The translations under genes were made by a program, and so were the position numbers. From Eledone cirrhosa (Eukaryota), in contig OZ024741.1 of NCBI GenBank assembly GCA_964016885.1, positions 44,578,001 through 44,642,000 of the forward strand: a DNA stretch of 64,000 bases. Direction: 5' to 3'. The first letter of the stretch is position 1, and the number at the start of each line of letters is the position of its first letter. Below, in pieces: positions 8,793-60,353 of the stretch. The notes beneath the pieces were generated by a model, which saw nothing but the letters and a program-made list of their open reading frames with translations, searched no databases and was not told the origin of the DNA.

Positions 8793-10277
8793 AAAATGCA
8801 ATATCTCACTGCATATTTTGAGTGATCAAAATGATTTTTATTTTGCATACGTTCCGCCGTCGCAATTGTTGGTTGTACGGGATTTGTTTGAAGGTTTATA
8901 TAATGTGGAAACAACTGCCACTCTGTTGATATTACCTTTCATCTCTTTCTCTCTAACTAGCAAGTGACACATCACTCCCAATTGGACAAGTCAACACGTT
9001 ATTCTCTCTTGTTTCATTACAATTGACGGTCCTCACACAACAGACTTACACACAGTATGTTATTCCTCTATGGTTTCGTTTCGTAAGACTTTTTAGATGC
9101 AGGTGTCAACATAAACAACACGATACTTATATGCGCATCAAGGAATCAAGCTACATAACAGCGCTGCTTATTGTAAATATGAAGGACCCTCCAACGAAAC
9201 AGCTTGATCGTGAAATTAACCTGCATATGACTGAAAATTTCAGACAATCTTCACGTAATTCTCAAAGATATTCTGCGTAACATAGGGTGTGACTAAGAGG
9301 ATCATTTGTATTACTCCCATGTACAATCCAATCGGCGAGTTTCGATACAATTTCTGTCATCTGTATAATTCACACACACGCGTTAATAGACTGGCGTCTA
9401 TAGTATTTGTCACTTGCTTAAGTTACTATGCAGTGGGCTCAAACTTTTGACATTACTGTTATAAATCGAACTTTTAAAAATGTTTTCCTTGATCCGTCCA
9501 CAATAGATCCTACTAATGAATCTGCAAATGAGCAAATTTCCATCTGGATTCATCAGTAATTGGGCATTGAAAATTTGAAGTCAAAATCATAACATAAGCT
9601 ATTAACATGATTAATGTGAACACAGAATATGTGAAAATTGAATACGTTGAGTGGAAAAAAACAAAGGTAATTATTGATTTTATTGAATATATCAAATATA
9701 TTCTGGTGTGTAAAACTTCTTAGAAAAGCAACTATCGGTTTACTCACATTCTGGAAAAGAGAAGGATATAGCAAAGCAAAACTTCATTGGTAAGTGATTG
9801 GTTCATTAGAATTTCAAAGTGATTTATGCTTTCAAACATGTTATAAGGGAACTCCGGTTCACAGATTATATTCATATATGCTCACATACATATTCATAAA
9901 TGACATATCATGTACATTAGATCAAACAAATATATTATAACAATACGATATTAATATCTTACACTCTATAGTATTATTATTTTATTGAAATTATGCTATA
10001 CCGCTTTGATGTTATTTTACGAAATAAATATTGCGAAAGAAACTGTTAGTTCGGTGGTACATTGTTTTTCCCTTCATAGATTTTTGATCTACTTAATATA
10101 TGCAGTATTTCTTTCTTTACAACTAATTCTCTCAATCGCACTACACACACGCACACACACGCGAGTGTGCGTACATACATACATACCTTGATACATGTTT
10201 ATACATATGTATACAAACATACAATCATACAAACACACACACACACCGACGCATACAAAACACAAAAACACACACCA

Positions 10278-10741: not shown

Positions 10742-11272
10742 AAAATAAAGTTAAATAAATGTCAAATGATTAAAATTTAGTTTCGTTTATTACTGCTATA
10801 TATATTTCAGTGACAGCTATCTTTGGCTGTGACCTCTTCAGGCAATTTGAATTAGTATGGTATAGACAAGTACATATGTTGTTTAGGTGTATAATATTGT
10901 CAATACTCTGATATGCCCAGTTCCTTGTTGTCATTTCACTGAGGAACTGGAGTCATATGACTCCAGTTCCTCAGTGAGATAACAACCCAACAAGGAACTG
11001 GGCATATCAGAGTATTGACAATATTATACACCTAAACAACATATGTACTTGTCTACACCATACTAATTCAAATTGCCTGAAGAGGTCATAGCCAAAGATG
11101 GCTGTCACTGAAATATATATAGCAGTAATAAACGAAACTAAATTTTAATCATTTGACTTTTATTTAACTTTATTTTACACTACTCCGGAGTAACCAAACC
11201 AACCTGCGCACTTCGTCGAGTGCTCCAGGCTGCATACTGAGGTGTTGGTATACAACCAACATAAACTCAAAA
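10742..11272. mobile_element. Palindromic PLE-type insertion (centre GTCATATGAC, about 10955) with right extension
   Basis: Arms about 10742-10955 and 10956-11177, with several mismatches and one small indel. Extension 11178-11272 is homologous to about 5935-6028. Confidence 0.8.
11073..11125 (+). ncRNA. Type I hammerhead motif (mirror copy about 10793-10845 minus)
   Basis: TTGC-CTGAAGA-ggtcatagcc aaagat ggctgtcact-GAAA-TATATA-TA-GCAG. Confidence 0.7.
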
Positions 11273-17004: not shown

Positions 17005-17839
17005 GGAACAAACGTGCTGCAAATGGGTTACATATGAATAAAGTTAGTCCTTCATCAGTGATCTTCCAACCATCATTGGTATTTCATCGCTTTAAAGACC
17101 ATATACCTCCGGTTGGTGCGAGCAACGGCTAAAGAAAGTCGTTGGGACACGTAAATAAGGGGAACGAGCGAGAGTGTAAACAAACAAAGATGGTAAAGCA
17201 ATGAAAAGTGAGGAAGAAGAGTCAAGTCCCAGACACGCAGCTCAATTGTTCTCATATTCACACATATATTTTCCCCCGCTGTGACCCGTCTATTTCGTTC
17301 TTACTGCTTCCTCTTTCTCTGTATCTTTACCCCCTCTAACAGTCACTCTCTCTGTTAGCCTCTTCCGCACCCTTCACTCACTCACTCTCTGCTATTACCT
17401 CTCCTACTTCCTCCCGTTTGACCTGTGCGTAATTCTTTTCTCGCGCACGCTTGACCAGGCTGGTTCCCTTTTCTCTCTCTCGTCTATATTTCACAGAACT
17501 TATGTTCACCGAATTCACGGACTGGACGCCTTCTTCCTCCCGTTTGACCTGTGCGGAATTCTTTCCCTGCTCACATTTCGACTAGGTTTGATGGTCTTTA
17601 TTCTCTCTCATTCACGATTTCACCGAACTTATATTCATGGAAATCTGGGACTTGACTCTTTCTTCCTCGTTTTTCGTTGCTTTACCATCTTTGTTTGTTT
17701 ACACTCTCGCTCGTTCCCCTTATTTACATGTCCCAACGACTTTCTTTAGCCGTTTATCGCACCAACCGGAGGTATATGATCTTTAAAGCGATGAAATACC
17801 AATGATTGTTGGAGGATCACTGATGAAGGACTAACTTTA

Positions 17840-17843
<4 letters not shown>
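17005..17843. mobile_element. S-family non-coding element with partial inverted copy
   Basis: Minus arm 17005-17232 mirrors 17644-17843 plus an extension. Plus body 17233-17843 has an internal duplication of about 127 bp. (TA)n on both sides. Confidence 0.8.
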
Positions 17844-17885
<42 letters not shown>

Positions 17886-17889
<4 letters not shown>

Positions 17890-17983
17890 AGGTTGTGGTA
17901 AGGTACCAGTTGGACATTAACCCACCAAAGTTCGGATCTAGCTGTCGAATCGGGCGGAGCTCAGCCGTCGGGGTCCTGAATCT

Positions 17984-17988
<5 letters not shown>
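17886..17988. mobile_element. Short N-family PLE composite in (TA)n
   Basis: Minus piece TGTGGTAAGGTACCAGTTGGAC.. joined to plus piece AGTTCGGATCTAGCTGTCGAA..GCCGTCGGGGTCC..TTTTCATA. Confidence 0.75.
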
Positions 17989-18044
<56 letters not shown>

Positions 18045-18169: not shown

Positions 18170-18532
18170 AAGTATGTTTTGAAACAGTGAGCAGGTTTGA
18201 AATTAGAAAATAGAATAGCTTTCACCGTATTTTTGACTAAAGGAAATTTAGCCTGATAATGGGGTTTAGAACCCTCAGGTAAATGGAAAAAGATGAGTAT
18301 TGACGTACATGGGAGTCGAACCCACAGAATGTAGCTTCTAATTTGAATGGAAAGAGATGGGTGATGTGTTGGTGTAATGGTAGCACAGTGGTCGCGATAA
18401 CCAAAGATGTGGGTTCGACTCCCATGTACGTCAATACTCATCTTTTTCCATTTATCTGAGGGTTCTAAACCCCATTATCAGGCTAAAATTCCTTTAGTCA
18501 AAAATACGGTGAAAGCTATTCTATTTTCTAAT
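18169..18532. mobile_element. tRNA-containing inverted-repeat insertion in microsatellite
   Basis: 125-bp arms 18202-18326 and 18408-18532, left extension 18169-18201, tRNA-like sequence spanning the spacer and right arm. Confidence 0.8.
18363..18433 (+). pseudogene. tRNA-like sequence (Pol III A and B boxes), probably not a functional tRNA
   Basis: Cloverleaf: acceptor GATGTGT/GTACGTC (3 G-U pairs), D stem GTGT/GCAC, anticodon stem TGGT/ACCA with loop CGCGATA (lacks U33 and R37), T arm GTGGG-TTCGACT-CCCAT. Confidence 0.75.
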
Positions 18533-22702: not shown

Positions 22703-22737
<35 letters not shown>

Positions 22738-22742
22738 TATTA

Positions 22743-22778
<36 letters not shown>

Positions 22779-22788
22779 CCCCAATTCA

Positions 22789-25700
22789 ATGATGTTCCAG
22801 AACAATGTAAACGAGATAATTGGCAATTTGGGTTCTGGAACAAAAAAGATCATTGGCAATAAGGGCAGGGGCCCCAAGTTATCACAACCTGGGCCCGCCC
22901 GTCATCGTGCCATTGTAATAGAGCCAAACAGGGCATTTAGTCTTGGCTGCTGGAACGTACGGACGCTGCTTGACAGGGATTCTTTGGAGCGTCCTGAACG
23001 AAGGACCGCTCTTGTTGCGAAGGAGCTTCGACGTTACGATCTTGACATCGTGGCTTTGTCTGAGACGAGGTTAGCTGGAGATGGTCATCTTACGGAATTT
23101 TGTGGAGAATATACATTCTTCTGGAAAGGAAGAGATGAAGGAACCAGAAGAGAGGCTGGGGTAGGATTTGCTGTTAAGACTGTACTGGTGAATAAATTGG
23201 AAGAATTCCCAGTGGGGATTGGTGAGCGTCTTATGTCCATGAGAGTTCCGCTGGACAAGGGAAGATATGCTACCCTGGTGAGTGTGTATGCTCCAACTAT
23301 GAATTCTGTCGATGAAGAAAAACTGTCCTTTTACCATGCCTTGAAAGGTGTTTTAAGAAATATCCCTCAGGCAGACAAAGTCATCGTGCTTGGTGACTTT
23401 AATGCTAGAGTGGGTAGGGATTTTAACACATGGAATGTAATCGGAAGGCATGGGGTGGGAAAGTGTAACAGCAATGGTATGCTCTTGCTGCAGATGTGTG
23501 AGGAGCTGGATCTGTGTGTTACCAACACCATGTTCCAACAAAAGAACAAATTCAAGACCACATGGATGCATCCTGCATCTAAGGAATGGCATCTTTTGGA
23601 CTACGTCCTAGTCAGGATGCGTGACAGACAGGATGTGCGGTGTGTTCGTGTTCTTCGTGGAGCTGAGTGCTGGACGGACCACCGCCTGGTACGCGCAAAA
23701 GTGAATCTAATCACCAAACGTAAAATCCGGGCTCCTGGTGTTACCCTGCCCAAAAGATTGAATGCTGCTCGTCTTAAGGATAAAAATGTGAAGAGGACAT
23801 TGGAAGAAGAGATGCAGGCTGCAGATCTTGGTGAGGATTGGCCGACCCTTAAAAAGTCGGTTTATGATGTAGGCAGACGTGTTCTGGGATTGGTGCAGAG
23901 AAAACATCAGGACTGGTTTAATGAGAAAGATGTGCATATAGATGACTTGTTGGCTGATAAGAGGCGCGCTCTGTCACGCTACTTGACGGCAAGACCACAG
24001 GAGAGGAATACGTTGCATGAGGAGCTCAGGGATGTAAAATCACGTGTTAGGCGGAGTCTTTCTCAGATGAAGGATCAGTGGTGGAGTGAGAAGGCTGGTG
24101 AGATACAAACTGCGTCTGATTGCAATAACACAAAGCTGTTGTACAGTCTCTTGCGTGAGGTTTATGGACCGTCTTCTTCTCTGGTGACACCGATTCGCAG
24201 CGAGGATGGCAAAGAACTTCTTCGTGACTCACAGGGAATTCTACGAAGGTGGCGGGAGCACTTTGATGATCTTTTGAATCAGCCGTCTGTCGTCAGTGAA
24301 GATTTCCTCAATCTCATTCCGGAAAGTCCTGTGAAAGTAGCTCTCGCAGAGCCTCCGACACTTGTGGAGGTTGCAGTGGCTATTTCGAAGCTGAACAGTG
24401 GAAGATCTCCAGGTATGGATGGCATACATGCTGAGCTCCTACAATATGGTGGTGAGAGACTCCTGCAACATCTTCACTCTCTGTTTGGAAGGATATGGGC
24501 TAATGAATCCGTGCCTGAGGACTGGAGAGATGCAGTAATGGTGGTCTTGTACAAGGGAAAGGGTAACAGGAATGATTGTGGGAACTACAGAGGTATATCA
24601 TTGCTTTCTGTCGTGGGGAAAGTTTTATGTAGGGTGCTTCTGGACCGTCTGCTGACACACATTGCAGATTGTGTCCTTCCTGAAAGTCAATCTGGTTTTC
24701 GTGTTGGACGCGGCACTACTGATATGGTCTTCTCAGCTAGACAGCTCCAGGAGAAGTGCATTGAACAGGGCTTGGATCTGTATCAGGTTTTTGTCGATCT
24801 GACAAAGGCTTTCGATACTGTCAACAGAGATGCATTATGGAGGGTTCTCCAGAAACTTGGTTGCCCTGATAAGTTCCTTGCTTTAGTTAGGTCTTTCCAT
24901 GACGACATGAAGGCTTGGGTTAATGTCGGAGGTAGCGTGTCGGAGCCTGTCTCAGTAAAAAATGGAGTGAAACAGGGGGATATTCCAGCACCGACCCTGT
25001 TTGCCATATACTTTGCAATGGTTTTCTGTATTGCATTCAGGAATTGCGAGCATGGTGTTTACATCCGATATCGAACCTCAGGCAGCATATTTAACATCAG
25101 GCGCTTTGCTGCGAAGACAAAAGTATTTACATCAGTCATAAGAGACCTCTTGTATGCAGATGATTGCGATCTTGTAGCGCACACAGAGAGTGATATGCAG
25201 CACATTTTGAATGTATTTTCTGACGCTTGCACTGCCCTGGGTTTGACTGTCAGTCTCAAGAAAACCGTCGTCATGTACCAACCTGCACCTGGTAGGCAGT
25301 ACACTGAACCAAACATCTATGTGTATGGCAAACGACTTGGAGTGGTTGATCAGTTTGTCTACCTGGGAAGCACTGTCAATCGATACGGCAACCTTGACAG
25401 TGAAATCTCACTTAGGATTAGGAAGGCAAGTGATGCTTTCGGAAAGCTAGAAAGGCGACTCTGGGGTCGGCGAGACATATGCAGGAGGACAAAGGTAAAG
25501 GTGTACAGGGCATGTGTACTCTCTTGTCTTCTTTATGCCTGCGAGACCTGGGTCACATATCGACGCCACCTTAAGCAATTGGAGCGTTTCCATCAGATGT
25601 GTCTCAGACGGATACATGGCGTTCGCTGGAGGGACCACATCAGTGATGTCGAGATTTTGGAAAGCTCTATGTGTGACAGTATAGAAGCTCTTGTGCTTAA

Positions 25701-26334
25701 GCAGCGACTCCGTTGGAGTGGTCACCTTGCCAGGATGAAGGATTCTAGAATACCAAAACAACTCTTCTATGGAGAGTTGGTTAAAGGAAAACGACCGCCA
25801 CATAAACCAAAAAAGAGGTATAAGGATTCCTTGAAGGCCTCTCTGAAAGACGCTAACATCTCTGCTGATACATGGGAAAATGTTGCTGCTGATCGTAATA
25901 AATGGAGAAAGACTGTATATGAGGGAAAAGTTGCCTTTGAGGCATCTCGAATCGCACACGAGAAAGTAAAGCGGGACGTGAGGAAGGGTATTGCTGTTGC
26001 ACTTCCAGACGGCGAGGGTCCTCCTATGTTTCTGACATGCAGCGTCTGTGCGAGACTCTGCCTAAGCAAAGCTGGACTCGAAAGTCATCTTCGCAGTCAT
26101 AAAGTAAGACCAGTGGTTGACTACCAGGCTGCTGTTGGAGATGCTACTCATCATGCTTGCCAAACATGTGGTAGAGAATGTAAATCAGCAGGAGGACTCA
26201 AGCGACATGCAAAAGTACACGAACTCCAACCACAGCCGACTATTCCCAGTAAATGTTTTGGTTGCCGACTCTGTGCAAGACATTTTGGATCATTGGCTGG
26301 GCTAAAAAGCCACATTCGATCGCAGCACTGTTAG
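22789..26334 (+). CDS. RTE retrotransposon polyprotein: AP endonuclease, reverse transcriptase and three C-terminal C2H2 zinc fingers (1181 aa)
   Basis: APE motifs WNVRTL, LSETR, VYAPT, GDFNA, LDY, TDH. RT motifs YRGISLL, VDLTKAFD, GVKQG, YADD. Fingers CSVC..HLRSH, CQTC..HAKVH, CRLC..HIRSQH. No stops. Confidence 0.97.
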   Translation: MMFQNNVNEIIGNLGSGTKKIIGNKGRGPKLSQPGPARHRAIVIEPNRAFSLGCWNVRTLLDRDSLERPERRTALVAKELRRYDLDIVALSETRLAGDGHLTEFCGEYTFFWKGRDEGTRREAGVGFAVKTVLVNKLEEFPVGIGERLMSMRVPLDKGRYATLVSVYAPTMNSVDEEKLSFYHALKGVLRNIPQADKVIVLGDFNARVGRDFNTWNVIGRHGVGKCNSNGMLLLQMCEELDLCVTNTMFQQKNKFKTTWMHPASKEWHLLDYVLVRMRDRQDVRCVRVLRGAECWTDHRLVRAKVNLITKRKIRAPGVTLPKRLNAARLKDKNVKRTLEEEMQAADLGEDWPTLKKSVYDVGRRVLGLVQRKHQDWFNEKDVHIDDLLADKRRALSRYLTARPQERNTLHEELRDVKSRVRRSLSQMKDQWWSEKAGEIQTASDCNNTKLLYSLLREVYGPSSSLVTPIRSEDGKELLRDSQGILRRWREHFDDLLNQPSVVSEDFLNLIPESPVKVALAEPPTLVEVAVAISKLNSGRSPGMDGIHAELLQYGGERLLQHLHSLFGRIWANESVPEDWRDAVMVVLYKGKGNRNDCGNYRGISLLSVVGKVLCRVLLDRLLTHIADCVLPESQSGFRVGRGTTDMVFSARQLQEKCIEQGLDLYQVFVDLTKAFDTVNRDALWRVLQKLGCPDKFLALVRSFHDDMKAWVNVGGSVSEPVSVKNGVKQGDIPAPTLFAIYFAMVFCIAFRNCEHGVYIRYRTSGSIFNIRRFAAKTKVFTSVIRDLLYADDCDLVAHTESDMQHILNVFSDACTALGLTVSLKKTVVMYQPAPGRQYTEPNIYVYGKRLGVVDQFVYLGSTVNRYGNLDSEISLRIRKASDAFGKLERRLWGRRDICRRTKVKVYRACVLSCLLYACETWVTYRRHLKQLERFHQMCLRRIHGVRWRDHISDVEILESSMCDSIEALVLKQRLRWSGHLARMKDSRIPKQLFYGELVKGKRPPHKPKKRYKDSLKASLKDANISADTWENVAADRNKWRKTVYEGKVAFEASRIAHEKVKRDVRKGIAVALPDGEGPPMFLTCSVCARLCLSKAGLESHLRSHKVRPVVDYQAAVGDATHHACQTCGRECKSAGGLKRHAKVHELQPQPTIPSKCFGCRLCARHFGSLAGLKSHIRSQHC

Positions 26335-29400: not shown

Positions 29401-30323
<923 letters not shown>

Positions 30324-30331
<8 letters not shown>

Positions 30332-30852
30332 TATAGAGAAAAATACTGCAGGTAGCACATGGATAACATGTAATAAAATAAGTCCCTCATCAGTGATTTG
30401 CCGAAGATCATAGATATTTCATTGCATTAAAAATCATATATCTCACGTCGGTGCAATAATAACCAAAATAAGTTATTAGGACAATTAAAACGCGTAAAGC
30501 GAGTGAGACAGGAGAACAACAAAGAGTATAGCTAACCGTAGGGGAAAGAAACAAGCTTCAAAAATTATTCTGTTTAGCATAAGCTAGGTGAATATATGAG
30601 CGCTTAGAGAATAGATCCTACACGAGCGAAGGCTATGAGCAGAGAGAGAAAAATAGCGTTCGTGGTGTGCAGGATGAAATGAAGAGAAGAGAGAGAAAAA
30701 CAGTGAGTGAGTGAAAGTGTGAGGAAGAGTTAACGGACATGACAGAGGGGGAGAAACAGAGAGAATGGGGGAACAGTAAGAGAGAGAGAAAAAAACACAG
30801 AATCGCAGTGGTAAATATATGTATTAAAATATAGAGAAAAATACTGCAGGTA
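30324..30852 (-). mobile_element. S-family non-coding element with 31-bp terminal direct repeat (period 498 bp)
   Basis: TATTAAAATATAGAGAAAAATACTGCAGGTA at 30324-30354 and 30822-30852. Body is a diverged homologue of 17233-17843 and 47913-48340. Confidence 0.75.
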
Positions 30853-31319
30853 ATATATATATATATATATATATATGTATAATCCATTTTTTATGCTAAA
30901 AAAAGTGTACATGAAATCGTATTGAAAAAATGAGAAAATCAACACAGTTCATATAGGATATTTGATTTTAACTAACGTTTGCGTTAATATTTTCCGGTAA
31001 AACACGGATAAGTGCTTCTGATTCTTATATATGTGCTTTTTATATGTATCATAAAAATAAAAGTTTTAGGATTTGGGGATTTGTTTCTGTATTTCTGTAT
31101 TTGTTGGAAAGGAATATAAAACACGGATTTAGGAACTATTTACTCAATAGTAATTTAGATTTCCCAACGATCGTCGACAAATCTGATAGGTTTCATTTGA
31201 CTAACGGTCTGTAAAATATTCTTTATGAAATGTTTTGCTCAAAAACATTTCGGCTTTACGCATGAATATATACGCTGAAACATAAATGATATAATTAAGT
31301 CACTCTCACTCTCTCTTTA

Positions 31320-39232: not shown

Positions 39233-41323
39233 GCAGGTTCCATTCTATGATATGCCACTGGTGGGTTATTGAAGATGACTCCACAAAGCTCTGCTGACAT
39301 ATGATTTAGTTCAAACACACTCACAGTAGCATCACAAAGGCCGTAATCAAACCCATTGGTTGAACATAGTTCCAGGCTTTCACAAGTCTTGCCTCCTTGA
39401 ATATATGAGATCATCTACTCACACTGGGATCAAGTCAGTTGTACAATCATTAACAGTATAGTATTTCAACATGGCACGCCTTTGATAGCTCAACGATAAG
39501 CGTGTTAAGAGCCCATGTTGTTTTGAATGAAAATGTTGTTAACAACAATAGCCAAAGCAGCAAAATCACCAACAACAACAACAGTTAAATATGAGGTAGT
39601 AGCTATCGGTATCAATGAGTGCAGCAGCAGGAGTAGTAGTGATAATAGAAGTGATGGTATTAGTAGCTCCATCATAGTTGTTATATAATATCATAGAGGG
39701 ATAAGTATAAAAGGGAAATATGATAAAAATGAAATAAAAAGTAATAGGAATCAAATAGAGAAAAACAATAATGAAATAACACATAAAAAGTACATAAAAT
39801 AGAAAAAAATAAGAAAGTATGTAAAAAAAATGTATTAATGATAAATAGAAAAGGAAGAGATACATCAACAAAAATATACAAGTAGTGAAAAATATAGCAG
39901 TACAGAGATTTTAAAGAAATATACGTTGTACAGTATAAACACTTAAATGCAGTGAGAAGAAAAGGACCCTAAGTATTAATGTAGTTAATGAAAGATGGAT
40001 ATAGTATTATGGCTTGATGAATGTTGTCAGCTATTTCAGATATATAAACTTGCTCTCCTAGAGGGAATTTGAATGGGTTATAACTAACTACTCTTCATAA
40101 TCGGTCAAATCTTATTGTGTCGTGGACTACTCTATCATGTATCCAGGATAGGTGGGTGGTTAAATCAAAGCATCAGTGGAATATTGTGACTATTCGAGAG
40201 TGAGTGAATGTCCATTCTAACGTTAATCTGTGTCTTTGGTGTAGATGACTTGTATTTATGTCTGAAAACAGTGTGTTAGCTATATTGAGAGTCTGAAAAG
40301 GTTCCATATGGTATGTAGGGATAATTTCACATAGGCTTCATCGATGGTGGGTGTTCTATCTAGGACCACACAAAAGTGAGTTTACATTCCATATCGCTTA
40401 AGGAAAATCCCGCACTCAGGTGCAAACATGCATGAAAGAAAGCTGCAGTTAATTTGTTGCAATCCACCCTCTAAGTATCTCAATAGTCTCACACAGAGAG
40501 GAGCTACCGCCGTCTAGGATTATCTCATATCCCATGATTTAGCTATTTGTAGTAGTCTACATGTCGTCCTAACTGTGGTAGATGACTTTTCTCCCTTTTT
40601 CATAAACCTGATTGATTGACTCAGTTTTCTTTGAGTTGGTGTTCCATGCTTTTCTGTTGATCCAGAAAGTTGACAAGCGCCATGACGCCCTGTATTTCTC
40701 CCATGAGTAAGAGCTATTTTACATTCTGATAAAATCTGGAATATGATGTCTCTTGTTCCAAATGACCTACATAATCGTATGTATGTATATATATATATAT
40801 ATATATATATCCCACCACCACCCCACTCTCAAGAGCGTGAAATTAATAAACATTCGTTGTACTGCCTCTCTGTTTTGTTCCTGTTCAAATTTTCCATTAT
40901 ATATAATACACGCTCACACGGCTTCCATTCCTTTGGAATATAACTTAACTACCGGCTCAACCCCGATCTAATCCGCCGTGACCACTCTCTGAACTTTACA
41001 CACCTTCCCACACTTGTTCTTTCCTTCCACGCATTACCTTTGTTTGATTTTGTTACTGTACTTGTTTATTTCCGTATCTGATTTTTTGCCTGTGTTTTTA
41101 CAATTTTATTTCTATGATTTTCTGTTCACGATTGCCTGTGTTTTTACCTTTATGATTTTTTGTCTTTAATTTTTCTCCGTATACTCTCCCCTCCTTACGT
41201 TTTTCTGTTTCATTTTCCCTTCCCCGTCTCTGCCTCTCCTTCGCACTCACTCCTTTGTTCACTCCAGCCCGCTTCACACACCTGCTTTCTCATCCCTCCC
41301 CCTGCTTTCACCCAACGCCCACC

Positions 41324-44090
41324 ATGCCCAGCCTGAGATCCTTTCTCCACCAACTACACACTAGCCTCAAACTTTTCCTCACCCCCCTCCTCCCACCCTG
41401 CTATCTCCCCTCTGCCCTTCAACTCTCCTACATTCTCTTCGCCAAAACCCGGCACTCCAGCCACATCCATTTCCTCAGCCACTGCCTCCGCCTCCACCTT
41501 ATCCCCCTCGGCTTCCGTCTACATTTCCACCCTTCCCCCGCCGCTTCCCCCTCCACGCAACGTATCCTCACCCGATCCTCACGCCTCCTGATGCGCAACT
41601 CCATCCGCGCCTCCCGTTCCACCCTCCGCCAACTTGACCACCAACTGACACCCACCCTCCTCCGCCTTAACTCCACCTGCCACTCCATCCTTGCCCAAGC
41701 CATCCTCTCCTTCATCCAAAACCTCAACCACGACCTCTTCTCCTCCTCAGCTCCACCAAAGCCCGCAAGCTACACTCACTCCTTCCAACCACCCCCATCC
41801 ACCACCACCCGCCCATCCCCATCAGCCCACCACTCTCCACCCCTCCCTCGACCCACACCCCTACCCAATCTCCACCCTCCACCTCACCCCTCACCACACC
41901 CTCCCTTCCCCCACACACCCAAACCCCACCGCTTGTTGTCACCATACCCCCTCACCTCCCACTCTCCGCACCTGAGCGCTCACTCCTTAGTAGAGGCCTC
42001 CGCTTCATACCCCAAACTCCGCACAGCGACGAGTTCCGCACCCGAACGGAAGCCGAGCGATTCGTGCGACGCACGAAGCTACAGGCACATTTCGGCCGAA
42101 CGGCACCGGCTCCGGACGCCCCAGACCCGTTTCTCGCCCTGGGCCGACGACCATCTTCTTGGACGCGGGCCCCAGGGCAATTTAGCACCCTGGACGCGTT
42201 TGTCGATGCCAGCCGTAGCGCCGTAAATCGTGTCGCCTTCCGCCACCGTTCCAAACGGAATAATATCTCACGGGGCGAACTCCTCGCTCTCCGCTCCCTC
42301 CGTAGGCGAGATGACATCGTCATCAAACCGGTGGACAAGGGAGGCGCCGTGGTGGTGTGGTGCGCGGACGTATACACGGCCGAAGCCCTCAAGTAGCTCC
42401 GTAACCCCTCTTCTACCGCCCTCTACCCTCCAATCCCACACCACTCTACCAGCAACAAGTTTCCTCCACCATCCAACACCTTCTCTCCTCCTCCCTCCCC
42501 GCCCACCACTTCCCACCTCATCGTCCGCATCCCCCGCACCCCCACCATCTACTTCCTCCCCAAACTCCACAAACCCGACAACCCCGGCCGCCCCATCGAC
42601 TCCGCTTGCAACTGCCCCACCGATCTCATCTACGCCTTTCTCGACTCTATCCTCGCCCCCTTGTCACCACCCTCCCCTCCCACATCTCCGACACCAACCA
42701 CGCCCTGCGCCTTTTCGACTCCTTCACCTACCCACCCGGCCCACAGCCCTTCCTCTTCACCCTAGACATCAAGTCCCTCTATACCGTCATCCCCCACGCC
42801 GACGGTCTACGCGCCCTCAAACACTACCTCGAGCTTCGCCCCTCCCCCATCCACTCCACCCCCACCCGCCTTCGCCTCGCCGAGCTGGTCCTCACCCTCA
42901 ATTGTTTCTCCTTCTCGGGTGAGTTTTACCAACAGGTCACGGGGGTAGCCATGGGTACAAGAATGGGCCCGAACTATGCCAACCTTTTTGTTGGCCATGT
43001 TGAGGCCCAAATCTTTGCCCAGTACACCGGCCCCACGCCCGAAGTGTACGGTCGTTACATCGACGACTGTATCGGAGCCACGACTCTCACCCGAGAACAG
43101 CTCGACTCCTTTCTCTCCTTCTTCTGCTCCTTCCACCCCTCCCTCCACTTCACCACCTCTATCTCCACCACCCACGCCCACTTCATAGACATCTCCGTCG
43201 CCGTCGACCCCTACCACCACTCCCTCGTCACCTCCGCCTTCTTCAAACCACCGACTCCCACTCTTACCTCGACTTCACCTCTTCCCACCCCCCACACACT
43301 AAACACTCTATTCCCTACTCCCAACTCCTCAGGATCCGCCGCCTCTGTAGCCGAGATGCTGACTTCGAGTCCCAGGCCCTTTCCCTAGTCAGCCATTTTA
43401 TCCGCAGAGGTTACCACCCCGCCTCTCGTCCACACCGCTATCACCCGCGCCCGTGCTGTCCAACACTCCACCACCCTCACCCCACGCCACCGCACACCCA
43501 CCCACCGTCTCCCCTTCCCCATCACCTACCACCCCTCCAACTTACCCCCCCCCACCCCACCATCCGCCGCCTCTTCCGACGCCTCCAGTCCGACCCCTCC
43601 ACCTCCCACATCTTCCCAACCCCACCACTCCCCTCCTTCAAACGCGCACGCAATTTCCGCACCCTTCCTCGTCCACAGCTCCCTACCCCCCCACGCTCCC
43701 CCCCGGTTCCTTTCCCTGTTCTAGGCCCCGCTGCAACACCAGTCCCCACATCACCAACACCACCACCTTCCAGGGTCCCAACGGCCACTCTCTCTCCGTC
43801 CGGCATGCCTTCCGCTGCACCTCCTCCAACCTAGTCTACGGACTTACGTCGGACAGACGGGTCGTCGCCTGGCGGACAGATTCACTGAGCACCTCCGGGA
43901 TATTCGTCTCGGTGGTAGTTCCCCCATCGCCCGCGTCTTTGGTGCCCCTGGACATTCCGCACGCCATCTCACAGTCTGTGGCCTACTCCAATGCCACGAA
44001 ACACCCGCCAATCTCCTCAGAGTTGAACAAAGAACCATTTTCATCTTACAGACCCACACTCCCCCCGGCCTGAACTCCTCTCACTTATTC
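41324..44090 (+). pseudogene. Frameshifted PLE polyprotein (RT + CxxxxC linker + GIY-YIG endonuclease)
   Basis: IKPVDKGGAVVVW, LPKLHKP, LDIKSLYTVIPH, GVAMGTRMGPNYANLF, RYIDDC, FPCSRPRCNT, CTSSNLVY and YVGQTGRRLADRFTEH, spread over several frames. Confidence 0.93.
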
Positions 44091-45495
44091 CTTTAGCCTT
44101 CGACCGCCCCCTTCCCCCACACATATCCCCCACTAACACCACTAACACACCGCTCCTTTTCACCGCCCACCCCACAACTAACAATACTAACACCTCCACT
44201 CCACCCCTCATCCGACCACCCTTCCCCAACTAACATACTAACATCCCTCCCTTCTTCTCCTCCCTCCCTCCTTATCACACGCACACACCCACCGGCACAT
44301 ATATACACGCGCTCACACTAAACACACACCCTACTACCACCACAAACCCTCACCCCCACACATCCACCCCACCACCTCGCAACTAACATCACTAACACCC
44401 CCTGACCCCAAGCACACGAACACACGCACCCACTTACACCACCCACCCTACACGCAACTAACATCGCTAACACCCCCTAACCCCACGCACACGTACACAC
44501 ACACCCTCTTACACCACCAACTCTATACACCCTACCACCACTAACCCCCACTCACACCCGCATTCAACCCTTTCTCGACCTCCCGTATACTAACACCCAC
44601 TAACACCCCCTTCATCAAACTACACACACACCAGTACACCACACTCCCTCCATCGACCCCCACACCCTTCTCTCCCCGCTCCACCCACACCCTTTCTCAA
44701 ACACTCACTCATCCCACTAACACCTCTACTAATACCCACACACACCCTCCTCACTCCAACTTTCACACCTACCCATCCTCGCCCCTTTACCATTCCACTC
44801 TACTGCTGCTATGCCCTCTGACCACCTCCCAGCACACACAGACACATAGCACTCCTACTGCCTTGACCACTTCCTGTTGCGCGCGCACCCCACATCTCCC
44901 CTCTTTCGACCATCTCTTCACGGATTACTCGTATGTGGACCTTGACCGCGGAATCAAGTACCATCCTAGGATTTTACCAACCATTCCACAATATCTTCTT
45001 ACAGAATCACCCTTTTGACTCACCCACACACACACCCCCAAACATTCTTTTCCCACACGCCACCTACACCCACAACACGCTTAAACCCCACACGCACGTG
45101 CGTTCCGCCACATATTTACACATTCAGCCTCCGGATTCATGTCCCCCCACCCCTCTATCCACACACGCACACACACTCCGACCTACACCCCACACACACC
45201 TCTTCCTGAACATGCAACCCCGTTCTTCCCCAACCCTTGCTTTCACATACACACACACACACACACACCACCTTCAGCTCTCCCCGCTCGGACACCTCGT
45301 CTCCCTCTCCCCACTCCACCCGCCACCACCCCTACACTCCCCACACCCTTCCACCACCTGTTTTACCCTATTTTAATTTTATTTTGATCATGCTTTTATT
45401 TTTAATTTCATTCGCACCGTTTCCTCCCACCCCCTTTTCGCTATATGCCTCTCCACCACTCCCCCACACACCCTTTGAACTCTCTTCCCACACAC

Positions 45496-45530
45496 TTTTC
45501 ACCTGAAGAAGGGATTATGCCCGCAACGTC
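45496..45530 (+). ncRNA. Degenerate minimal hammerhead motif at the start of the 3' pLTR
   Basis: TTTTCAC-CTGAAGA-aGGGattatgCCC-GCAAC-GTC (GAAA>GCAA). Confidence 0.55.
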
Positions 45531-45641
45531 TTTCCCCACCACTACCCATCTCTCAAGAGCGTGAAATTAATAAACATTCTTTGTACTGCCTCTCTGTTTT
45601 GTTCCTGTTCAAATTTTCCATGATATATATATATATATATA

Positions 45642-45812
45642 TGAAAACCTATATCCGAACCGGAGTTCGGATCTAGCCTTCGAAACGGCCGGAGCACTGC
45701 CGTCGGGGATCCTGACTCTTTTCCTATTTCCTATTACCCACACTACTACTCTAAGTATCGAGTACTCTGGTGCGTTATGGTCCACCTGGCTTCTTACCAC
45801 ACTTTCTTTCTT
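45642..45812 (+). mobile_element. N-family mini-insertion
   Basis: AGTTCGGATCTAGCC..GCCGTCGGGG..CTTACCACACTT..TTATA preceded by a tiny inverted stub ATCCGAAC. Confidence 0.8.
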
Positions 45813-46065
45813 ATATATATGTATATATATATATATATACGGGATAACAAATTATTGTTATAGGTAGTTCACTTAGATGTAGTCCAGTTAGGGTACTCCA
45901 AATAGTGGATAGTATCAACGCTTGGCTAAGTTTGACTTAACAAGGCGTTTCCATAGTGATGTTGCGAGTACGCGGTGATTTCTATGTTGTTTCCACTTGG
46001 AGTAATGATAAATCAAGAAAGAAGAGTGACACGGTTTGCTATACAATAAGGGCTTTAATTACATT

Positions 46066-47642: not shown

Positions 47643-47645
<3 letters not shown>

Positions 47646-48340
47646 AAGGCAACGGAAAGAGAGGAAGATGAGAGATAAGTCCATGATATCTGTGAACTTA
47701 AGTTCGAGCAAATCTTGGACGAGTACAAAAAGACACGTCCAGACCCTGTGAAATGTGAGCGAGAAAAGTATTTCACACCGGTCAGACGGGAGGAATTGAG
47801 AGAGGGGAGTAGCAGAGAGTGAGTGAGTGAAAGTGTGGGGAAGAGGCCAGCCGAGATAGGGTGACTGGCAGAGGGGTGAATGAAGGTAAGCTTTCTCTCT
47901 ACTTGTATCTCTTTTACCTTCATTCACCTCCTCTGCCAGTCACCCTCTCTTGGCTGGCCTCTTCCCCACACTTTCACTCACTCACTCTCTGCTACTCCCC
48001 CTCTCTCACTTGCTCCCGTCTGACCGGTGTGAAATCCTTTTCTCGCTCACATTTCACAGGGTCTGGCCGCGTCTTTTTCTCCTCGTCCACGATTTTCTCG
48101 AACTTAAGTTCACAGATATCACGGACTTATCTATCATCTTCCTCTCTTTCCGTTGCCTTACCATCTCTGTTTGTTTACACGTCTCGCTTTCACCACCAAA
48201 TTTTTTTGTCCCAATAACTTTTTTTAGTTATAGCTCGCACCAGCCGGAGGTATATGGTCTTTAATGCGAAGAAATACCGATGATGGCTGGAAGATCACTG
48301 ATGCGGACAGTCCTGTCTTCTTGCTCTAATTTTATTCAAA
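47643..48340. mobile_element. S-family head-to-head insertion
   Basis: Arms about 47643-47889 and 47914-48161 (diverged). The plus arm continues through the conserved hairpin and ATCACTGATG to TA-rich sequence. Confidence 0.8.
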
Positions 48341-52687: not shown

Positions 52688-53350
52688 AATTTCTGATATT
52701 TGATTTAGGATTTTAATTTTTATTTCCAACTCTCACTCTTAACTTCCAATGTAAAACCATGATACCTAGAATTAAGTTTATTTTCCCTTATGAGTTGATG
52801 GTCAGTCGTACTGTCCACGCTTGGTGAGAGGTAGTATTATGACCTGCAAAAACTAACATTATCCCATCCCTCTGGCTTTCGGCTGAGTGCTACAGTCGGC
52901 ATGCGTAGCAGTAAACTATGGTACAGGCATAGGTGGGCCATTGTTTGGCTAAGAGGGTGAACTGACTAAGCGAATTTCGTTGAAATCTGCGGTAGCTAAT
53001 GGTCAACTTCCTTCGGACATGCGCCTGCGCAGACCGGTGGGGGTGAATTGGTACTCACAGGGGAGCGGATGAAATACCCAAAAGCACGCACTTCATCCGT
53101 TCCCATGTCGATTCAATTTGGATTGCCTCGGAAACATAACCTTATTATGTAACAAGCTGTCTGATGATGTCACGACACTCGTCACAGAACAGTGTGGCCA
53201 GTGTCGTCATTGAAATATATATCACAGCATTATTATTAAAGTACTTGAACATCTGAAACTACTTCGCTTTTCTTTATTCGATATTTACTCCGTCACTCCT
53301 ATGTGGAAAAAGTACGTTGAGTGCTTGAATTGAATTGCATCAATATTTAC

Positions 53351-53571: not shown

Positions 53572-53600
53572 CCATATATATAAATATATATAAATATATA

Positions 53601-53701
53601 TAACGAAGGAAATGTGCTAAGGAACCAGATGGACCATAACGCACCAAAGTACTCAATACTTACGGTAGTAGAGTGTGTAATAGGAACGAGTACGTTCCTA
53701 G

Positions 53702-56088: not shown

Positions 56089-56197
56089 AATACCTATGAT
56101 GGCTAGTAGATCACTGATGAAGGATAGTCCCTACTTCTCTTTCTAATTTCTACTTCATATGTATCACATTCGCAACAACACAGCACGCCATTTTTCA
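56089..56197 (+). mobile_element. S-family 3' fragment
   Basis: AATACCTATGATGGCTAGTAGATCACTGATGAAGGA..CATATGTA..CAGCACG..TTTTCATA. Confidence 0.65.
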
Positions 56198-56974
56198 TAT
56201 ATATATATATAACGAAGGAGGTGTGGTAAGGAACCAGATGGACCATAATGTACCACGGTACTGGAGTACAGAAGTAGCCCTCGAAACGGCAGAGCTCAAG
56301 CCGTTTCGACGGCTATTTCTGGACTAAATTAGAATTTTTAGAGTGGTAAATAAATTGCCGAACTTTTCAAGGGGTAAGTCCTTATATGGAAAGATTGTAG
56401 TTGTCAAAAGGATTGGTCAACATTTCTTGTAAACAGAATTAACTCTTTCATATCAGTAGGTGGGAGGTGGGGTGGCTGAACTTGCCTGTAGAACAATGAG
56501 GGAGTGGGTGGCGCCGGTCAAGCATCGAAAGTGAATTATTCTATACAACAAATTCTAAGGAGTGTGTATGAAATTATTGAGGGGACGTTATAGAATAGGT
56601 TAATAAATTGAGATTAAAAGATAATAAATGAATATATATAAATAATAAAAATGGATAGTAAGAAATAATAAAAAAAATCTCTAGAGTCTAAAGCAGCTGC
56701 TATATTTAGTTGGTATTGCGTTTTCGGCCAATGCTACATATCATTTACTGGGGTGGGGGTACTGAGGCGACAAACACCCGATGGGCTGCCTCGGGGTATG
56801 CGAAAGAGGAAAAAGTAAAAGGAAGAGGAGGGGGAGTGGAAAGAAGTGATAGGAAGCGATAAAGGGAAGAAGAAAAGAAAAAGGAAAAGAAAAGAAGTAC
56901 ATCAACCTATGTTAGCTGGGGTTTCCTCTATCTTGTTCAGCAAATGGGGAAAAGGAGGATGTTACAGCCATAGT

Positions 56975-57524
56975 CTACCCACACGGGTCATGAGGGTGTT
57001 TGAGGGCGAGGTAAGTCCTACGCAATCGGTGTTTACATACAGTTACAAGTTCGTCTTTTTTGTTTAGGAGTTGGTCCTTCGTAAACAGCATTTGTAATGT
57101 TTCCTCCGAGCGTATGTTACACGGACAGCGTCCTCCCGTGTAGGGGTTAGCCCTGGACAGTAAGCTCCAAATAAGATTGTATGTTATGTTATTATCTTGG
57201 AGGTCCCAGATGTGGCCCGAAAGTGTAGTGGCATGACGCCGGGCCGGGTTTCGGAACGTACGTCGGTGTTGGTAGAGCCGGGTTTTAAAGTCACAAGCGG
57301 TTAATCCTATATAGGTTTTATTGGAGGTTTCCGTCCTCACGTTGCATTGGTAGATCATGTTAGGTTCTCGGCATCTGTTGTTGTTGGGGGGGGGGGGAGG
57401 GCGGGCACGTAGATCTATCAGGGCAGTTACACCACCTGGTCGGCTCTCCACTAATGTCTAGGTTGTTTCTTCCATAGGGGTTGAGTTTCTTATTGTTTGA
57501 GGAGGCGATGTTTTGTGCGAAGTT
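56975..57524 (-). pseudogene. PLE GIY-YIG endonuclease fragment
   Basis: NFAQNIASSNNKKL (other frame), CREPNMIYQC, YIGLTACDFKTRLYQH, TTLSGHIWDL, CPCNIRSEE and LLNKKDELVTVCKH. Confidence 0.9.
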
Positions 57525-57754
57525 GTCTAGAAATAGACGTCGAAACGGCTTCAGCTCTGCCGTCGGGATTAAACATTCTCCTATTACTCACTCTACTACC
57601 CTAATTATTGAGTACTCTGGTACGTTATGGTCCATCTGGTTCTTTACCACACCTCCTTCGTTATCTAGCTCCTACCTCCGTAGTAGAGCACTTTCCGACC
57701 CTACCACGCCATACCCTGACTTTTCCATCCAGCTCAAGTTTCATTACCCTCACC

Positions 57755-58185: not shown

Positions 58186-58370
58186 AATCTAGAATTTGCT
58201 GTATATAATTCACTTTCAACGCTTGACCGGCGCCACCGACTTTCTTGTTGTTCTACAGGCAAGTTCAGCCACCCACCCCCTCCCACCCACTGCTATGTAA
58301 GAGTTCATTCTGTTTACAAGAAATTTTGACCAATCCTTTTGACAACTACAATCTTCCCATATAAGGAATT

Positions 58371-58466: not shown

Positions 58467-58476
58467 TAAACATCCT

Positions 58477-60353
<1,877 letters not shown>

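What the first reader, a model, noticed from the sequence alone, without database searches (positions are those of the whole stretch)
30324..30852. About 500-nt non-coding, terminally redundant element: retrozyme-like parasite of PLEs
Seen: the 31-bp perfect direct repeat is element sequence, not target, because homologues occur in other copies. The period is 498 bp and no meaningful ORF is present. Four diverged loci occur in 64 kb, in or next to TA tracts, two with PLE-type inversion. Known: metazoan non-LTR retrozymes are short tandem units processed by type I hammerheads into circular RNAs and thought to use PLE RT. Inference: copies derive from a circular or multimeric small RNA, but this family carries a different structured motif, so it may be an undescribed class.
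Basis: partly seen in the sequence, partly recalled or inferred. Interest (0 to 1): 0.75.

Follow-up and report, generated by a model that had tools for sequence, protein, structure and literature searches.

The report
Retrozyme-like element with rearranged hammerhead
A 498-base non-coding mobile element, found in many copies and tandem arrays in this 3-Gb animal genome and likely spread by the enzymes of Penelope-like retrotransposons, carries every part of a hammerhead ribozyme in a rearranged order that standard searches miss and that is predicted to cut its own RNA.

Summary
Window 30324-30852 is one 498-bp unit plus a perfect 31-bp repeat of one end. It has no ORF and lies in (TA)n.

In the own genome the family forms copies from 66 bp to an array of at least 33 units. 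One end is constant at unit position 1-14, with an alternative start at 45-55. The other end is variable. Some loci carry inverted 5'-truncated partner arms. These are the hallmarks of Penelope-like element (PLE) insertion, with the window's minus strand as the RNA sense.

Canonical PLEs are very abundant here and also end in (TA)n. No ORF-bearing partner sharing the element's 3' end was found.

The "different structured motif" is a 110-nt module with 15,025 exact core matches genome-wide, against 10 for the control. It holds all hammerhead core nucleotides. [quoted passage not shown] 2023. Here stem II is branched. A second, sequence-unrelated family has the same architecture.

Self-cleavage, a circular RNA template and the identity of the partner remain untested.

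Verdict: a new variant of a known kind, a PLE-dependent retrozyme-like element with a permuted hammerhead.

The parts
30324..30852 (-). One insertion of the family: a full 498-nt unit preceded, in RNA sense, by a 31-nt 5'-truncated second unit (a pLTR-like partial tandem). The RNA sense is the minus strand. The constant (RT-start) end is at 30324 and the variable 5' end at 30852.
   Evidence: strand fixed by G-U pairs
30324..30354 (-). 31-nt terminal repeat, copy at the constant (3') end of the unit
30822..30852 (-). 31-nt terminal repeat, the partial second unit at the variable end
30264..30323 (.). (TA)n flank at the constant end
   Evidence: most other copies have the same flank
30853..30877 (.). 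(TA)n flank at the variable end
30377..30487 (-). Conserved structured RNA module, a hammerhead-like motif in S-G-C block order (alignment A4, columns 1-113)
30387..30393 (-). CUGAUGA core box (C3-A9). 10.1 lies at 30386.
   Evidence: U4-G8 invariant and C3/A9 at least 90% conserved in 37 distinct copies
30418..30420 (-). G12 A13 A14 of the core. 11.1 lies at 30421.
   Evidence: invariant; 11.1-10.1 pair UA:18, UG:17
30436..30437 (-). Predicted cleavage site, between H17 (30437, A in RNA sense) and 1.1 (30436)
   Evidence: Inferred by analogy with hammerheads. H17 is A or C in 36 of 37 copies and G in one. Cleavage not tested.
30430..30436 (-). Stem I, strand 1.x, pairing with 30394-30400 (2.x)
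   Evidence: 93.1% paired, 3 pairs with changes on both sides
30438..30442 (-). Stem III, strand 16.x, pairing with 30413-30417 (15.x)
   Evidence: 97.3% paired, 2 pairs with changes on both sides; A15.1-U16.1 invariant
30453..30456 (-). Distal stem II, strand 10.2-10.5, pairing with 30422-30425 (11.5-11.2)
   Evidence: 96.6% paired; pair 34-66 CG:27, UA:7
30446..30451 (-). Clamp stem P3, 5' strand, pairing with 30401-30406. It ties the distal ends of stems I and II.
   Evidence: 96.4% paired, 4 pairs with changes on both sides. Corresponds to the fourth stem of type-SGC hammerheads.
30457..30478 (-). P2 hairpin, a branch in stem II
   Evidence: 4 pairs with changes on both sides
30479..30482 (-). 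P1 strand, pairing with 30382-30385. It closes the module across the rest of the unit.
   Evidence: Invariant in the main family. The equivalent stem has different letters in family Z.
30324..30381 (-). 3' tail between the module and the RT-start end. The alternative start at unit position 45-55 gives an optional tail of about 44 nt.
   Evidence: (L020, L109, L113, L100); compare
17005..17845 (.). Diverged relative (family B): head-to-head inverted pair with constant ends outward
47645..48320 (.). Diverged relative (family C): head-to-head inverted pair. The core box is degenerate.

Best explanation
Window 30324-30852 is one copy of a non-coding, tandem-forming repeat family (a full 498-nt unit plus the last 31 nt of a second unit). 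It was likely inserted by target-primed reverse transcription by the reverse transcriptase/GIY-YIG endonuclease of Penelope-like elements (PLEs), and its RNA is predicted to self-cleave through a rearranged hammerhead.

Shown:
- The RNA sense is the window's minus strand.
- Copies share one end, at unit position 1-14, less often 45-55. They stop at any position on the other side and run on through unit boundaries to form arrays.
- Some loci carry a second, inverted, 5'-truncated arm.
- Flanks are (TA)n, sometimes after a (CU)n run.
- Each unit holds a 110-nt module in which all hammerhead core nucleotides are conserved and stems I, II, III and a clamp stem covary. The blocks stand in the order S (cleavage site), G (GAAA), C (CUGAUGA).

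Inferred:
- The template is a multimeric transcript or a circle.
- The PLE protein binds near the module and starts reverse transcription about 113 nt downstream of the predicted cut site, as the anole PLE does about 90 nt downstream of its hammerhead.
- Both target strands prime, which gives the inverted arms.
- The ribozyme processes multimers.
For: Repeat and unit:
- 31-nt repeat and 498-nt unit. No ORF.

Genome-wide copies:
- 101 scored matches at 91-100% identity, from 38 scored regions out of 1374 first-look candidates.
- Arrays of about 7, 11 and at least 33 units.

Ends in about 35 independent loci:
- The constant end is at position 1-14 in most, and at 45-55 in 4.
- The variable end is spread over the unit, with none of 37 ends at 472-498.
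- The flank is (AG)n on the window's plus strand, that is a (CU)n tail in RNA sense, in 9 loci.
- An inverted partner arm is present in 4 loci.

Orientation of inverted pairs:
- 17 of 17 opposite-strand module pairs lying within 1 kb in the listed places have their 3' ends outward (my reading of the coordinate lists, not a computed count).

PLEs in this genome:
- 10,595 GIY-YIG candidates.
- Two PLE lineages end in (TA)n, with a pLTR or an inverted 5' copy.
- Their canonical minimal hammerhead sits about 92-105 nt from the 3' end.

Module:
- 15,025 exact core matches against 10 for the control.
- 37 distinct copies: 94.7% of cells paired against 28-47% in slid controls, 14 pairs with changes on both sides, 0 of 500 shuffles reaching the observed values.
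- Core nucleotides are invariant or at least 90% conserved.
- A second family, Z, has the same eight helices with other letters: 90.9% paired against 32-51%.

Literature:
- Type-SGC and type-CSG hammerheads cleave in vitro (PMC10085705, sections read).
- The anole PLE cuts and extends both strands, prefers AT-rich DNA, starts reverse transcription internally at two sites that define the 'tail', and uses multi-copy transcripts (PMC11167929, main text read).
- pLTRs, inverted copies, the tail and (TA)n bias are PLE hallmarks, and non-autonomous PLEs give head-to-tail arrays (PMC8557442, passages).
Against: - No autonomous PLE sharing the module or the unit body was found in the PLE sequences examined: module profile over 42 PLE-derived loci and the window, covariance model over the window and 3 of these loci, unit bodies against 7 PLE sequences.
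- Three direct element-PLE head-to-head junctions (L140, L141, L157) are only suggestive. L157 looks like an insertion into an existing PLE palindrome.
- Rfam finds no hammerhead at E up to 1.
- Stem II is branched, so the C block is interrupted after 10.1. Published type-SGC ribozymes are not built this way.
- P1 never varies within the main family.
- Genome-wide, copies whose homology starts at the predicted cut site (25) are no more frequent than at control positions 4 nt away (57 and 17) among 1865 intact sites.
- The module's folding energy is not unusual (z -0.8).
- No RNA data could be obtained.
Confidence: 0.75

Rival explanations
1. Full retrozyme cycle. Unit-length RNA is cut out by the ribozyme and ligated into a circle, and rolling-circle reverse transcription of that circle gives the more-than-one-unit copies and the arrays.
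For: - Copy lengths are continuous across unit boundaries, and no variable end falls in the last 27 nt of the unit (0 of 37 at positions 472-498).
- Units within an array are more alike (98.6-99.2%) than units between loci (97.4%) and share array-specific indels.
- Metazoan retrozymes are expressed as circles (PMC7229834, passages).
Against: - The same anatomy follows from internal initiation on multi-copy linear transcripts, which is what was seen for a PLE in vitro. There the hammerhead was dispensable.
- Autonomous PLEs in this genome, which are not small circles, show the same partial tandems.
- Arrays contain non-identical units, for example 494- and 498-nt types in L008.
- No RNA evidence.
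Confidence: 0.3
2. The module is not catalytic. It is a protein-binding or RT-recruiting 3' structure that only resembles a hammerhead, possibly descended from one.
For: - The C block is interrupted by a four-way junction.
- There is no excess of copy ends at the predicted cut site.
- Several unpaired positions outside the hammerhead core are also invariant.
- In the anole PLE the protein-binding region overlaps the hammerhead region.
Against: - All 11 core nucleotides, the A15.1-U16.1 pair and the rule that H17 is not G are kept across diverged families and in a second, sequence-unrelated family.
- The four stems needed for type-SGC activity are all present and covary.
Confidence: 0.3
3. A SINE-like element mobilised by a LINE (apurinic-type endonuclease) rather than by a PLE.
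For: - An intact LINE ORF with endonuclease and RT domains lies in the window at 22705-26334.
- 5' truncation and 5' inversions also occur with LINEs.
Against: - That LINE ends in (TG)n directly after its stop codon, not in (TA)n, and has no module.
- Partial tandems, an optional tail of about 44 nt from two start sites, and symmetric head-to-head pairs are PLE signatures.
- Both PLE lineages examined here share the (TA)n ends.
Confidence: 0.05
4. Ordinary satellite DNA, or a DNA-level rolling-circle (Helitron-like) element, spread by recombination or DNA transposition.
For: - Long arrays exist, of at least 33 units.
- Helitrons insert at AT dinucleotides.
Against: - There are hundreds of dispersed short copies with one fixed and one variable end, (CU)n tails and inverted 5'-truncated arms.
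- Selection acts on an RNA fold of one strand, shown by G-U pairs.
- No Helitron-type termini were seen at the copy ends read (by eye; no dedicated search).
Confidence: 0.03

Closest known systems
Metazoan non-LTR retrozymes (Cervera and de la Pena 2020, PMC7229834; Li, Clavereau and Pollet 2026 preprint, 10.64898/2026.07.22.740005)
   Same: Short non-coding AT-rich units in head-to-tail copies, from dimers to large multimers. One hammerhead-type motif per unit. Linked to Penelope-like elements.
   Different: The unit is longer (498 nt, against about 150-450). The motif is not the canonical type I hammerhead that defines retrozymes, but an S-G-C permuted one with a branched stem II. Many copies are less than one unit or one-plus units in (TA)n. 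Expression and circular RNA were not examined.
Type-SGC / type-CSG non-circularly permuted hammerhead ribozymes (Eckert, Friedrich, Weinberg and Weinberg 2023, PMC10085705)
   Same: Block order S, G, C. Strand 1.x is joined to 11.x by a short linker (4 nt here, typically 3 there). A fourth stem ties the other sides of stems I and II. All core nucleotides are conserved, and stems I-III covary.
   Different: Those came from metatranscriptomes, beside hairpin ribozymes. A term search of that paper shows no retrozymes and names Penelope-like elements only in a reference title. Here only 10.1 follows the CUGAUGA box. The rest of the 10.x strand comes from upstream through a four-way junction (P1, P2). 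Activity is untested.
Non-autonomous PLEs such as MRC1 of Chlamydomonas (Chlamys clade; Craig et al. 2021, PMC8557442)
   Same: Non-coding elements that produce pLTRs and multicopy head-to-tail insertions with microsatellite bias.
   Different: Those share their 3' ends with known autonomous families, and most Chlamys elements lack hammerheads. Here no autonomous partner sharing the 3' end was found, and a permuted hammerhead is present. The host is an animal.
pLTR-ORF junction of canonical PLEs (Poseidon of Anolis; Frangieh et al. 2024, PMC11167929)
   Same: A hammerhead lies about 90-110 nt upstream of an internal RT start. Two start sites give an optional tail. Both strands are cleaved and extended. 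The target is AT-rich, and the template is a multi-copy transcript.
   Different: That is part of an ORF-bearing element with a canonical minimal hammerhead. Here it is a stand-alone 498-nt unit.

Membership tests
Metazoan non-LTR retrozyme | Short non-coding unit in head-to-tail tandem copies | tested here: met
Metazoan non-LTR retrozyme | Canonical type I hammerhead in each unit | tested here: not met
   Rfam at E up to 1 on an array and on the window locus found no hammerhead. My own canonical descriptor gave no hit inside the three window elements. The single CUGAUGA box is not followed by GAAA.
Metazoan non-LTR retrozyme | Expressed as linear and circular unit-length RNA | not testable with these tools
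   No RNA holder was listed. Contigs cannot show RNA ends.
Non-autonomous Penelope-like element | Partial tandem (pLTR) and frequent 5' truncation | tested here: met
   The window PLE at 40810-45632 has the same architecture.
Non-autonomous Penelope-like element | Inverted 5'-truncated copy head-to-head | tested here: met
   4 of about 35 loci. 17 of 17 close opposite-strand pairs have 3' ends outward (read by eye from the lists).
Non-autonomous Penelope-like element | Optional 30-40-nt tail from two RT start sites | tested here: met
   Constant end at position 1-14 or at 45-55. At about 44 nt it is slightly longer than the published range.
Non-autonomous Penelope-like element | AT-rich or microsatellite target | tested here: met
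   (TA)n flanks in most loci. L157 suggests that part of the (TA)n may be added at insertion.
Non-autonomous Penelope-like element | 3' end shared with an autonomous PLE of the same genome | tested here: not met
   No module in the 42 PLE-derived loci and the window. No similarity of the unit bodies to 7 PLE sequences. Only a small sample of more than 10,000 candidates was examined.
Type-SGC hammerhead ribozyme | Blocks in the order S, G, C with all conserved core nucleotides | tested here: met
   H17 is A or C in 36 of 37 copies.
Type-SGC hammerhead ribozyme | Covarying stems I, II, III and a stem joining stems I and II | tested here: met
   and, for family Z
Type-SGC hammerhead ribozyme | Uninterrupted C block (2.x, CUGAnGA, 10.x contiguous) | tested here: not met
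   Only 10.1 is contiguous. Positions 10.2-10.5 lie upstream, joined through P1 and P2.
Type-SGC hammerhead ribozyme | Site-specific self-cleavage | not testable with these tools
   The genomic break-point proxy was inconclusive.

The most novel reading that the evidence does not exclude
An abundant animal superfamily of PLE-dependent retrozymes runs on an active, non-circularly permuted (S-G-C) hammerhead whose stem II is a four-way junction closed across the whole unit. The module has at least 15,000 copies in this genome, plus a second, unrelated family. As far as my literature searches show, this would be the first such ribozyme in a nuclear genome and in a retrotransposon. It would mean that 'hammerhead-less' PLE lineages and hammerhead-based retrozyme censuses have been missing a whole class.
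Probability: 0.5. Interest if true: 0.85.

Novelty: new variant of a known kind. Interest (0 to 1): 0.72.

Why it matters
- Retrozymes and PLE-associated ribozymes are found by searching for canonical hammerheads. An element family of this size that escapes Rfam shows that such censuses can miss whole superfamilies.
- In the one paper my term search found, permuted hammerheads come from metatranscriptomes and from one bacterial candidate of unclear significance. Placing one in a metazoan retroelement would give it a biological setting: multimer processing next to an internal RT start.
- The thousands of natural variants would serve structure-function work.
- The layout is the same as in the one PLE studied in vitro, with a ribozyme about 100 nt upstream of the RT start, two start sites and both strands primed. 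That makes the 498-nt unit a minimal natural substrate for studying PLE transposition.
- The (TA)n tracts that follow the 3' ends, even inside a non-TA target (L157), raise the testable idea that PLE reverse transcriptases help to seed (TA)n microsatellites.

Tried and rejected
- **Rfam.** No ribozyme hit on an array and the window locus at E up to 1. A gathering scan of the window found only a tRNA. A gathering scan of 12 PLE loci found nothing. An E-value scan of 5 PLE loci was swamped by microsatellite false positives. The 3' region of the window PLE gave nothing at E up to 10.
- **RNA evidence.** No RNA holder was listed. Contigs of four runs of unknown kind were laid. They show only that the module region has higher word depth than the rest of the unit, and that a 489-nt junction-spanning contig exists in a second organism. 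No statement on expression can be made.
- **Covariance-model search of the own genome.** It was replaced by IUPAC patterns.
- **Break-point enrichment at the predicted cut site.** 25 hits against controls of 57 and 17, so no enrichment. Of 12 such loci inspected, 9 were true breaks, 3 of them onto (TA)n. TA microhomology at the site confounds the test.
- **Search for an ORF-bearing partner.** GIY-YIG family search and 12 ten-kb PLE loci, and tblastn of 17 ORF products from the 12 PLE loci plus the window LINE against 75 element loci. A 2.9-kb module spacing turned out to be a composite.
- **Other checks.** The metagenome pattern scan gave 0 matches. The earlier-findings look-up returned nothing for this genome. 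Thermodynamic folding alone is not significant. Within-array against between-locus identity does not separate a circle from template jumps or later homogenisation.
- **Readings set aside.** Reading the motif as a canonical hammerhead in cis, in trans or as a dimer was rejected, because the block order a-c-b cannot be turned into a-b-c by rotation. P1 alone as stem II was rejected once the 33-36 / 64-67 pairing was found.

Full report
**1. The observation**

The window carries a perfect 31-nt direct repeat at 30324-30354 and 30822-30852, 498 nt apart. (TA)n lies on both sides. No frame longer than 85 codons crosses it, and those present are low-complexity.

A search of the own genome (3.0 Gb; the window is C2:44578001-44642000) returned 101 scored matches at 91-100% identity. 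These came from 38 scored regions out of 1374 first-look candidates. Many are head-to-tail arrays of about 7 and 11 units. A 66-nt family-specific probe found an array of at least 33 units at C3:160217079-160232976.

The 31-mer is therefore element sequence. The window copy is one full unit plus the first 31 nt of another.

**2. Anatomy of the copies**

I mapped the unit onto about 35 independent loci. They combine the best-scoring loci with the less biased set from the short probe.

- One end is nearly constant. It lies at unit position 1-14 in most loci, at 45-55 in four (L020, L109, L113, L100), and at about 113 in one (the inverted piece in L026, TA-ambiguous). It is flanked by (TA)n.
- In nine loci an (AG)n run on the window's plus strand precedes the (TA)n.
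- The other end lies anywhere in the unit, at positions 31 to 471. Copy length runs from 66 bp to many units.
- None of 37 variable ends lies at 472-498. There is thus no pile-up at a unit boundary.
- Four loci carry a second arm in inverted orientation whose variable end abuts that of the first.
- By my reading of the coordinate lists of two pattern searches, all 17 opposite-strand module pairs within 1 kb have their constant ends outward.

This is the pattern expected of target-primed reverse transcription. There is a fixed start on the RNA, 5' truncation, and priming from both target strands. The RNA sense is the window's minus strand, and the template has no fixed 5' end at the unit boundary.

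The window's relatives at 17005-17845 and 47645-48320 are two such head-to-head pairs.

**3. Penelope-like elements in this genome**

- A GIY-YIG family search gave 10,595 candidates.
- The dominant AT-rich family has a C-terminal endonuclease. It has pLTRs of about 1.1 kb and an inverted 5'-truncated copy, and it ends in (TA)n.
- A GC-rich family is present in the window at 40810-45632. There a 95-nt copy of its own 3' end stands in front of the body. This is the same architecture as the 31-nt redundancy under study. It too ends in (TA)n.
- Other copies of this family carry a canonical minimal hammerhead about 92-105 nt before the 3' end.

The literature fits this picture.

- Partial tandems, inverted 5'-truncated copies, an optional 30-40-nt tail and (TA)n bias are described as PLE hallmarks. 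Non-autonomous PLEs that make multicopy head-to-tail insertions are also described (PMC8557442, passages).
- A purified anole PLE cleaves and extends both strands and prefers AT-rich DNA.
- It starts reverse transcription internally at two adjacent sites, 85-92 nt downstream of its hammerhead cut site by my arithmetic from the stated positions.
- It uses multi-copy transcripts (PMC11167929, main text).

The element studied here reproduces each of these points. The alternative start at 45-55 corresponds to the tail, at about 44 nt.

**4. The partner was not found**

- A profile of the module found no copy inside any PLE body in the 42 PLE-derived loci and the window. The covariance model, run over the window and three of these loci, found none either.
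- Unit bodies show no similarity to seven PLE sequences.
- In 75 element loci no copy is joined in tandem to a PLE ORF.
- Three loci (L140, L141, L157) show the element's 5' end abutting the 5'-truncated end of a GC-rich PLE in inverted orientation, with no TA between them.

The last point could mean co-insertion. But in L157 the element sits between two inverted copies of a PLE 5' segment, which looks like insertion into an existing PLE palindrome. I therefore count these junctions as suggestive only.

In L157 about 115 bp of (TA)n follow the element's 3' end although the target is not TA. Some (TA)n may therefore be made at insertion. This is an inference.

**5. The structured module**

The part conserved between diverged families is about 110 nt long and ends about 60 nt before the constant end.

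- A loose pattern through its core (GAAA, 20 free positions, then a 10-nt box) matches 15,025 times in the genome, against 10 for the reversed control.
- From 32 sources I collected 63 matches with a covariance model and aligned 37 distinct full-length copies.
- Seven helices are supported: 94.7% of cells pair, against 28-47% when the partners are slid.
- 14 pairs change on both sides, and 0 of 500 shuffles reach the observed values (first version).
- G-U pairs, for example 17 at one stem I position, fix the RNA strand.

Read on that strand, the module contains:

- CUGAUGA, with U4-G8 invariant and C3 and A9 at least 90% conserved;
- GAA followed by A, all invariant;
- an invariant A-U pair closing the helix that follows GAA;
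- an unpaired A or C (G in one copy of 37) next to that pair;
- helices in exactly the places of hammerhead stems I and III.

The order of the three blocks is site, then GAAA, then CUGAUGA. No rotation turns this into type I, II or III, and Rfam finds nothing.

**6. The block order has a precedent**

Eckert et al. 2023 (PMC10085705; sections read) found type-SGC and type-CSG hammerheads in metatranscriptomes and showed that they cleave at the predicted site. They also showed that four stems are needed: I, II, III and a stem tying I to II.

The module matches these features.

- Strand 1.x runs through a 4-nt linker into the 11.x strand, where they report typically 3 nt.
- 11.1 pairs with the nucleotide right after the CUGAUGA box (U-A in 18 copies, U-G in 17).
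- The rest of 11.x pairs with a strand that shows one compensatory pair (CG:27, UA:7).
- P3 joins the distal ends of stems I and II.

The module differs in one respect. After 10.1 the chain enters P1, which pairs with a strand upstream. It then passes hairpin P2 and only then supplies 10.2-10.5. Stem II is therefore a four-way junction, and in a multimer or circle P1 closes over the rest of the unit.

Literature check:
- A search for the term 'type-SGC' found only that paper.
- A search joining non-circular permutation, hammerhead and retrotransposon listed, among its 15 best titles, none linking the two.
- A term search of the Eckert paper shows no retrozymes and names Penelope-like elements only in a reference title.

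I did not see its supplementary figures, which hold the consensus drawings.

**7. A second family**

A simple S-G-C descriptor run over all 1.37 Mb held gave 323 hits, against 1 in shuffled sequence. Of the 323, 322 are module copies.

The remaining hit belongs to another family, here called Z, with 46 pattern matches against 1 for the control. Thirteen full copies fit the same eight-helix plan with different letters in every helix, including P1. They pair at 90.9% against 32-51% when slid, and seven pairs change on both sides.

Two unrelated sequences that keep one intricate architecture and the same core nucleotides argue for function.

**8. What speaks against catalysis, or leaves it open**

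- Genome-wide, copies whose homology begins at the predicted cut site with a non-TA junction number 25. The same test 4 nt to either side gives 57 and 17. Of the 57, 26 are a palindromic snap-back. There are 1865 intact sites.
- So there is no excess. The site is itself TA-like, so TA-joined ends are hidden. Individual junctions at the site exist (L119, L123, L125) but prove nothing.
- In the anole PLE unprocessed RNA was the main template, and no reads ended at the cut site. The missing excess is therefore weak evidence either way.
- No RNA run could be found.
- Folding energy alone is unremarkable.

**9. Verdict**

The finding is real. It is one copy of a young, abundant, non-autonomous retroelement family, 96-100% identical between full-length copies. 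It shows every structural hallmark of PLE-mediated insertion that I could test.

Its motif is a hammerhead in the non-circularly permuted S-G-C order with a branched stem II. The element is retrozyme-like in build, but it fails the defining canonical type I hammerhead. It also lacks the uninterrupted C block of published type-SGC ribozymes.

I rate it a new variant of a known kind. Self-cleavage, circular RNA and the identity of the mobilising PLE are predictions, not results.

Noticed in passing
window 30066-30263; also 17886-17990, 45640-45820, 53584-53700, 56103-56330, 57360-57600, 58405-58640; L070 6430-6480: A roughly 200-bp element with a 63-nt perfect-arm hairpin (arms 30142-30204 and 30206-30268, 92% complementary) recurs many times, always inside or beside (TA)n. 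It looks like another very abundant TA-associated non-coding element, MITE-like or SINE-like.
   Followed up: no
L107 2085-2590 (-) = L163; 46 genome matches: A second family ('Z') of about 500-nt elements in TA tracts carries a sequence-unrelated S-G-C hammerhead-like module with a GUC-type cleavage triplet and a long P1.
   Followed up: partly
window 11076-11120 (+), 53159-53203 (-), 10058-10096 (-); L067, L068, L064, L066: My own descriptor finds canonical-looking minimal hammerheads with a palindromic stem III, the PLE type. Rfam's gathering thresholds do not report them. Their host elements were not examined.
   Followed up: no
window 40810-45632 (+): A GC-rich, C-skewed PLE copy with RT and endonuclease remnants in broken frames. 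It has a 95-nt pLTR followed by TATATA and a 3' end in (TA)n. Its hammerhead region at about 45501-45530 is degenerate here but intact in copies L154 and L157.
   Followed up: partly
window 22705-26334 (+): An open 1209-codon LINE ORF with an apurinic-type endonuclease, RT and C-terminal zinc fingers. It ends directly in (TG)n.
   Followed up: partly
G000, 26 of 57 hits (e.g. C3:248640804/248640813): Recurrent perfect palindromic junctions are centred on the CUUUAAAG loop of family-B modules. They are head-to-head copies that turn back exactly at this 8-nt palindrome, suggesting snap-back priming.
   Followed up: no
L157 5175-5291: About 115 bp of (TA)n/(TG)n follow the element's 3' end inside a target that is PLE sequence, not TA. 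The microsatellite may be synthesised or seeded at insertion.
   Followed up: no
window 56975-57457 (-), 57868-58329 (+), 62045-63461 (+): Further PLE fragments on both strands: a weak GIY-YIG hit, an N-terminal DKG-like region, and an RT-endonuclease stretch 78% identical over 271 aa to the PLE ORF in L061.
   Followed up: no
window 18363-18433 (+): A tRNA gene (Rfam 41.2 bits) lies just beside the family-B element and TA/TG tracts.
   Followed up: no
run X4, organism B: A 489-nt contig from a second organism matches the unit at about 96% in circularly permuted register. A junction-spanning form of the family therefore exists in a related species.
   Followed up: no
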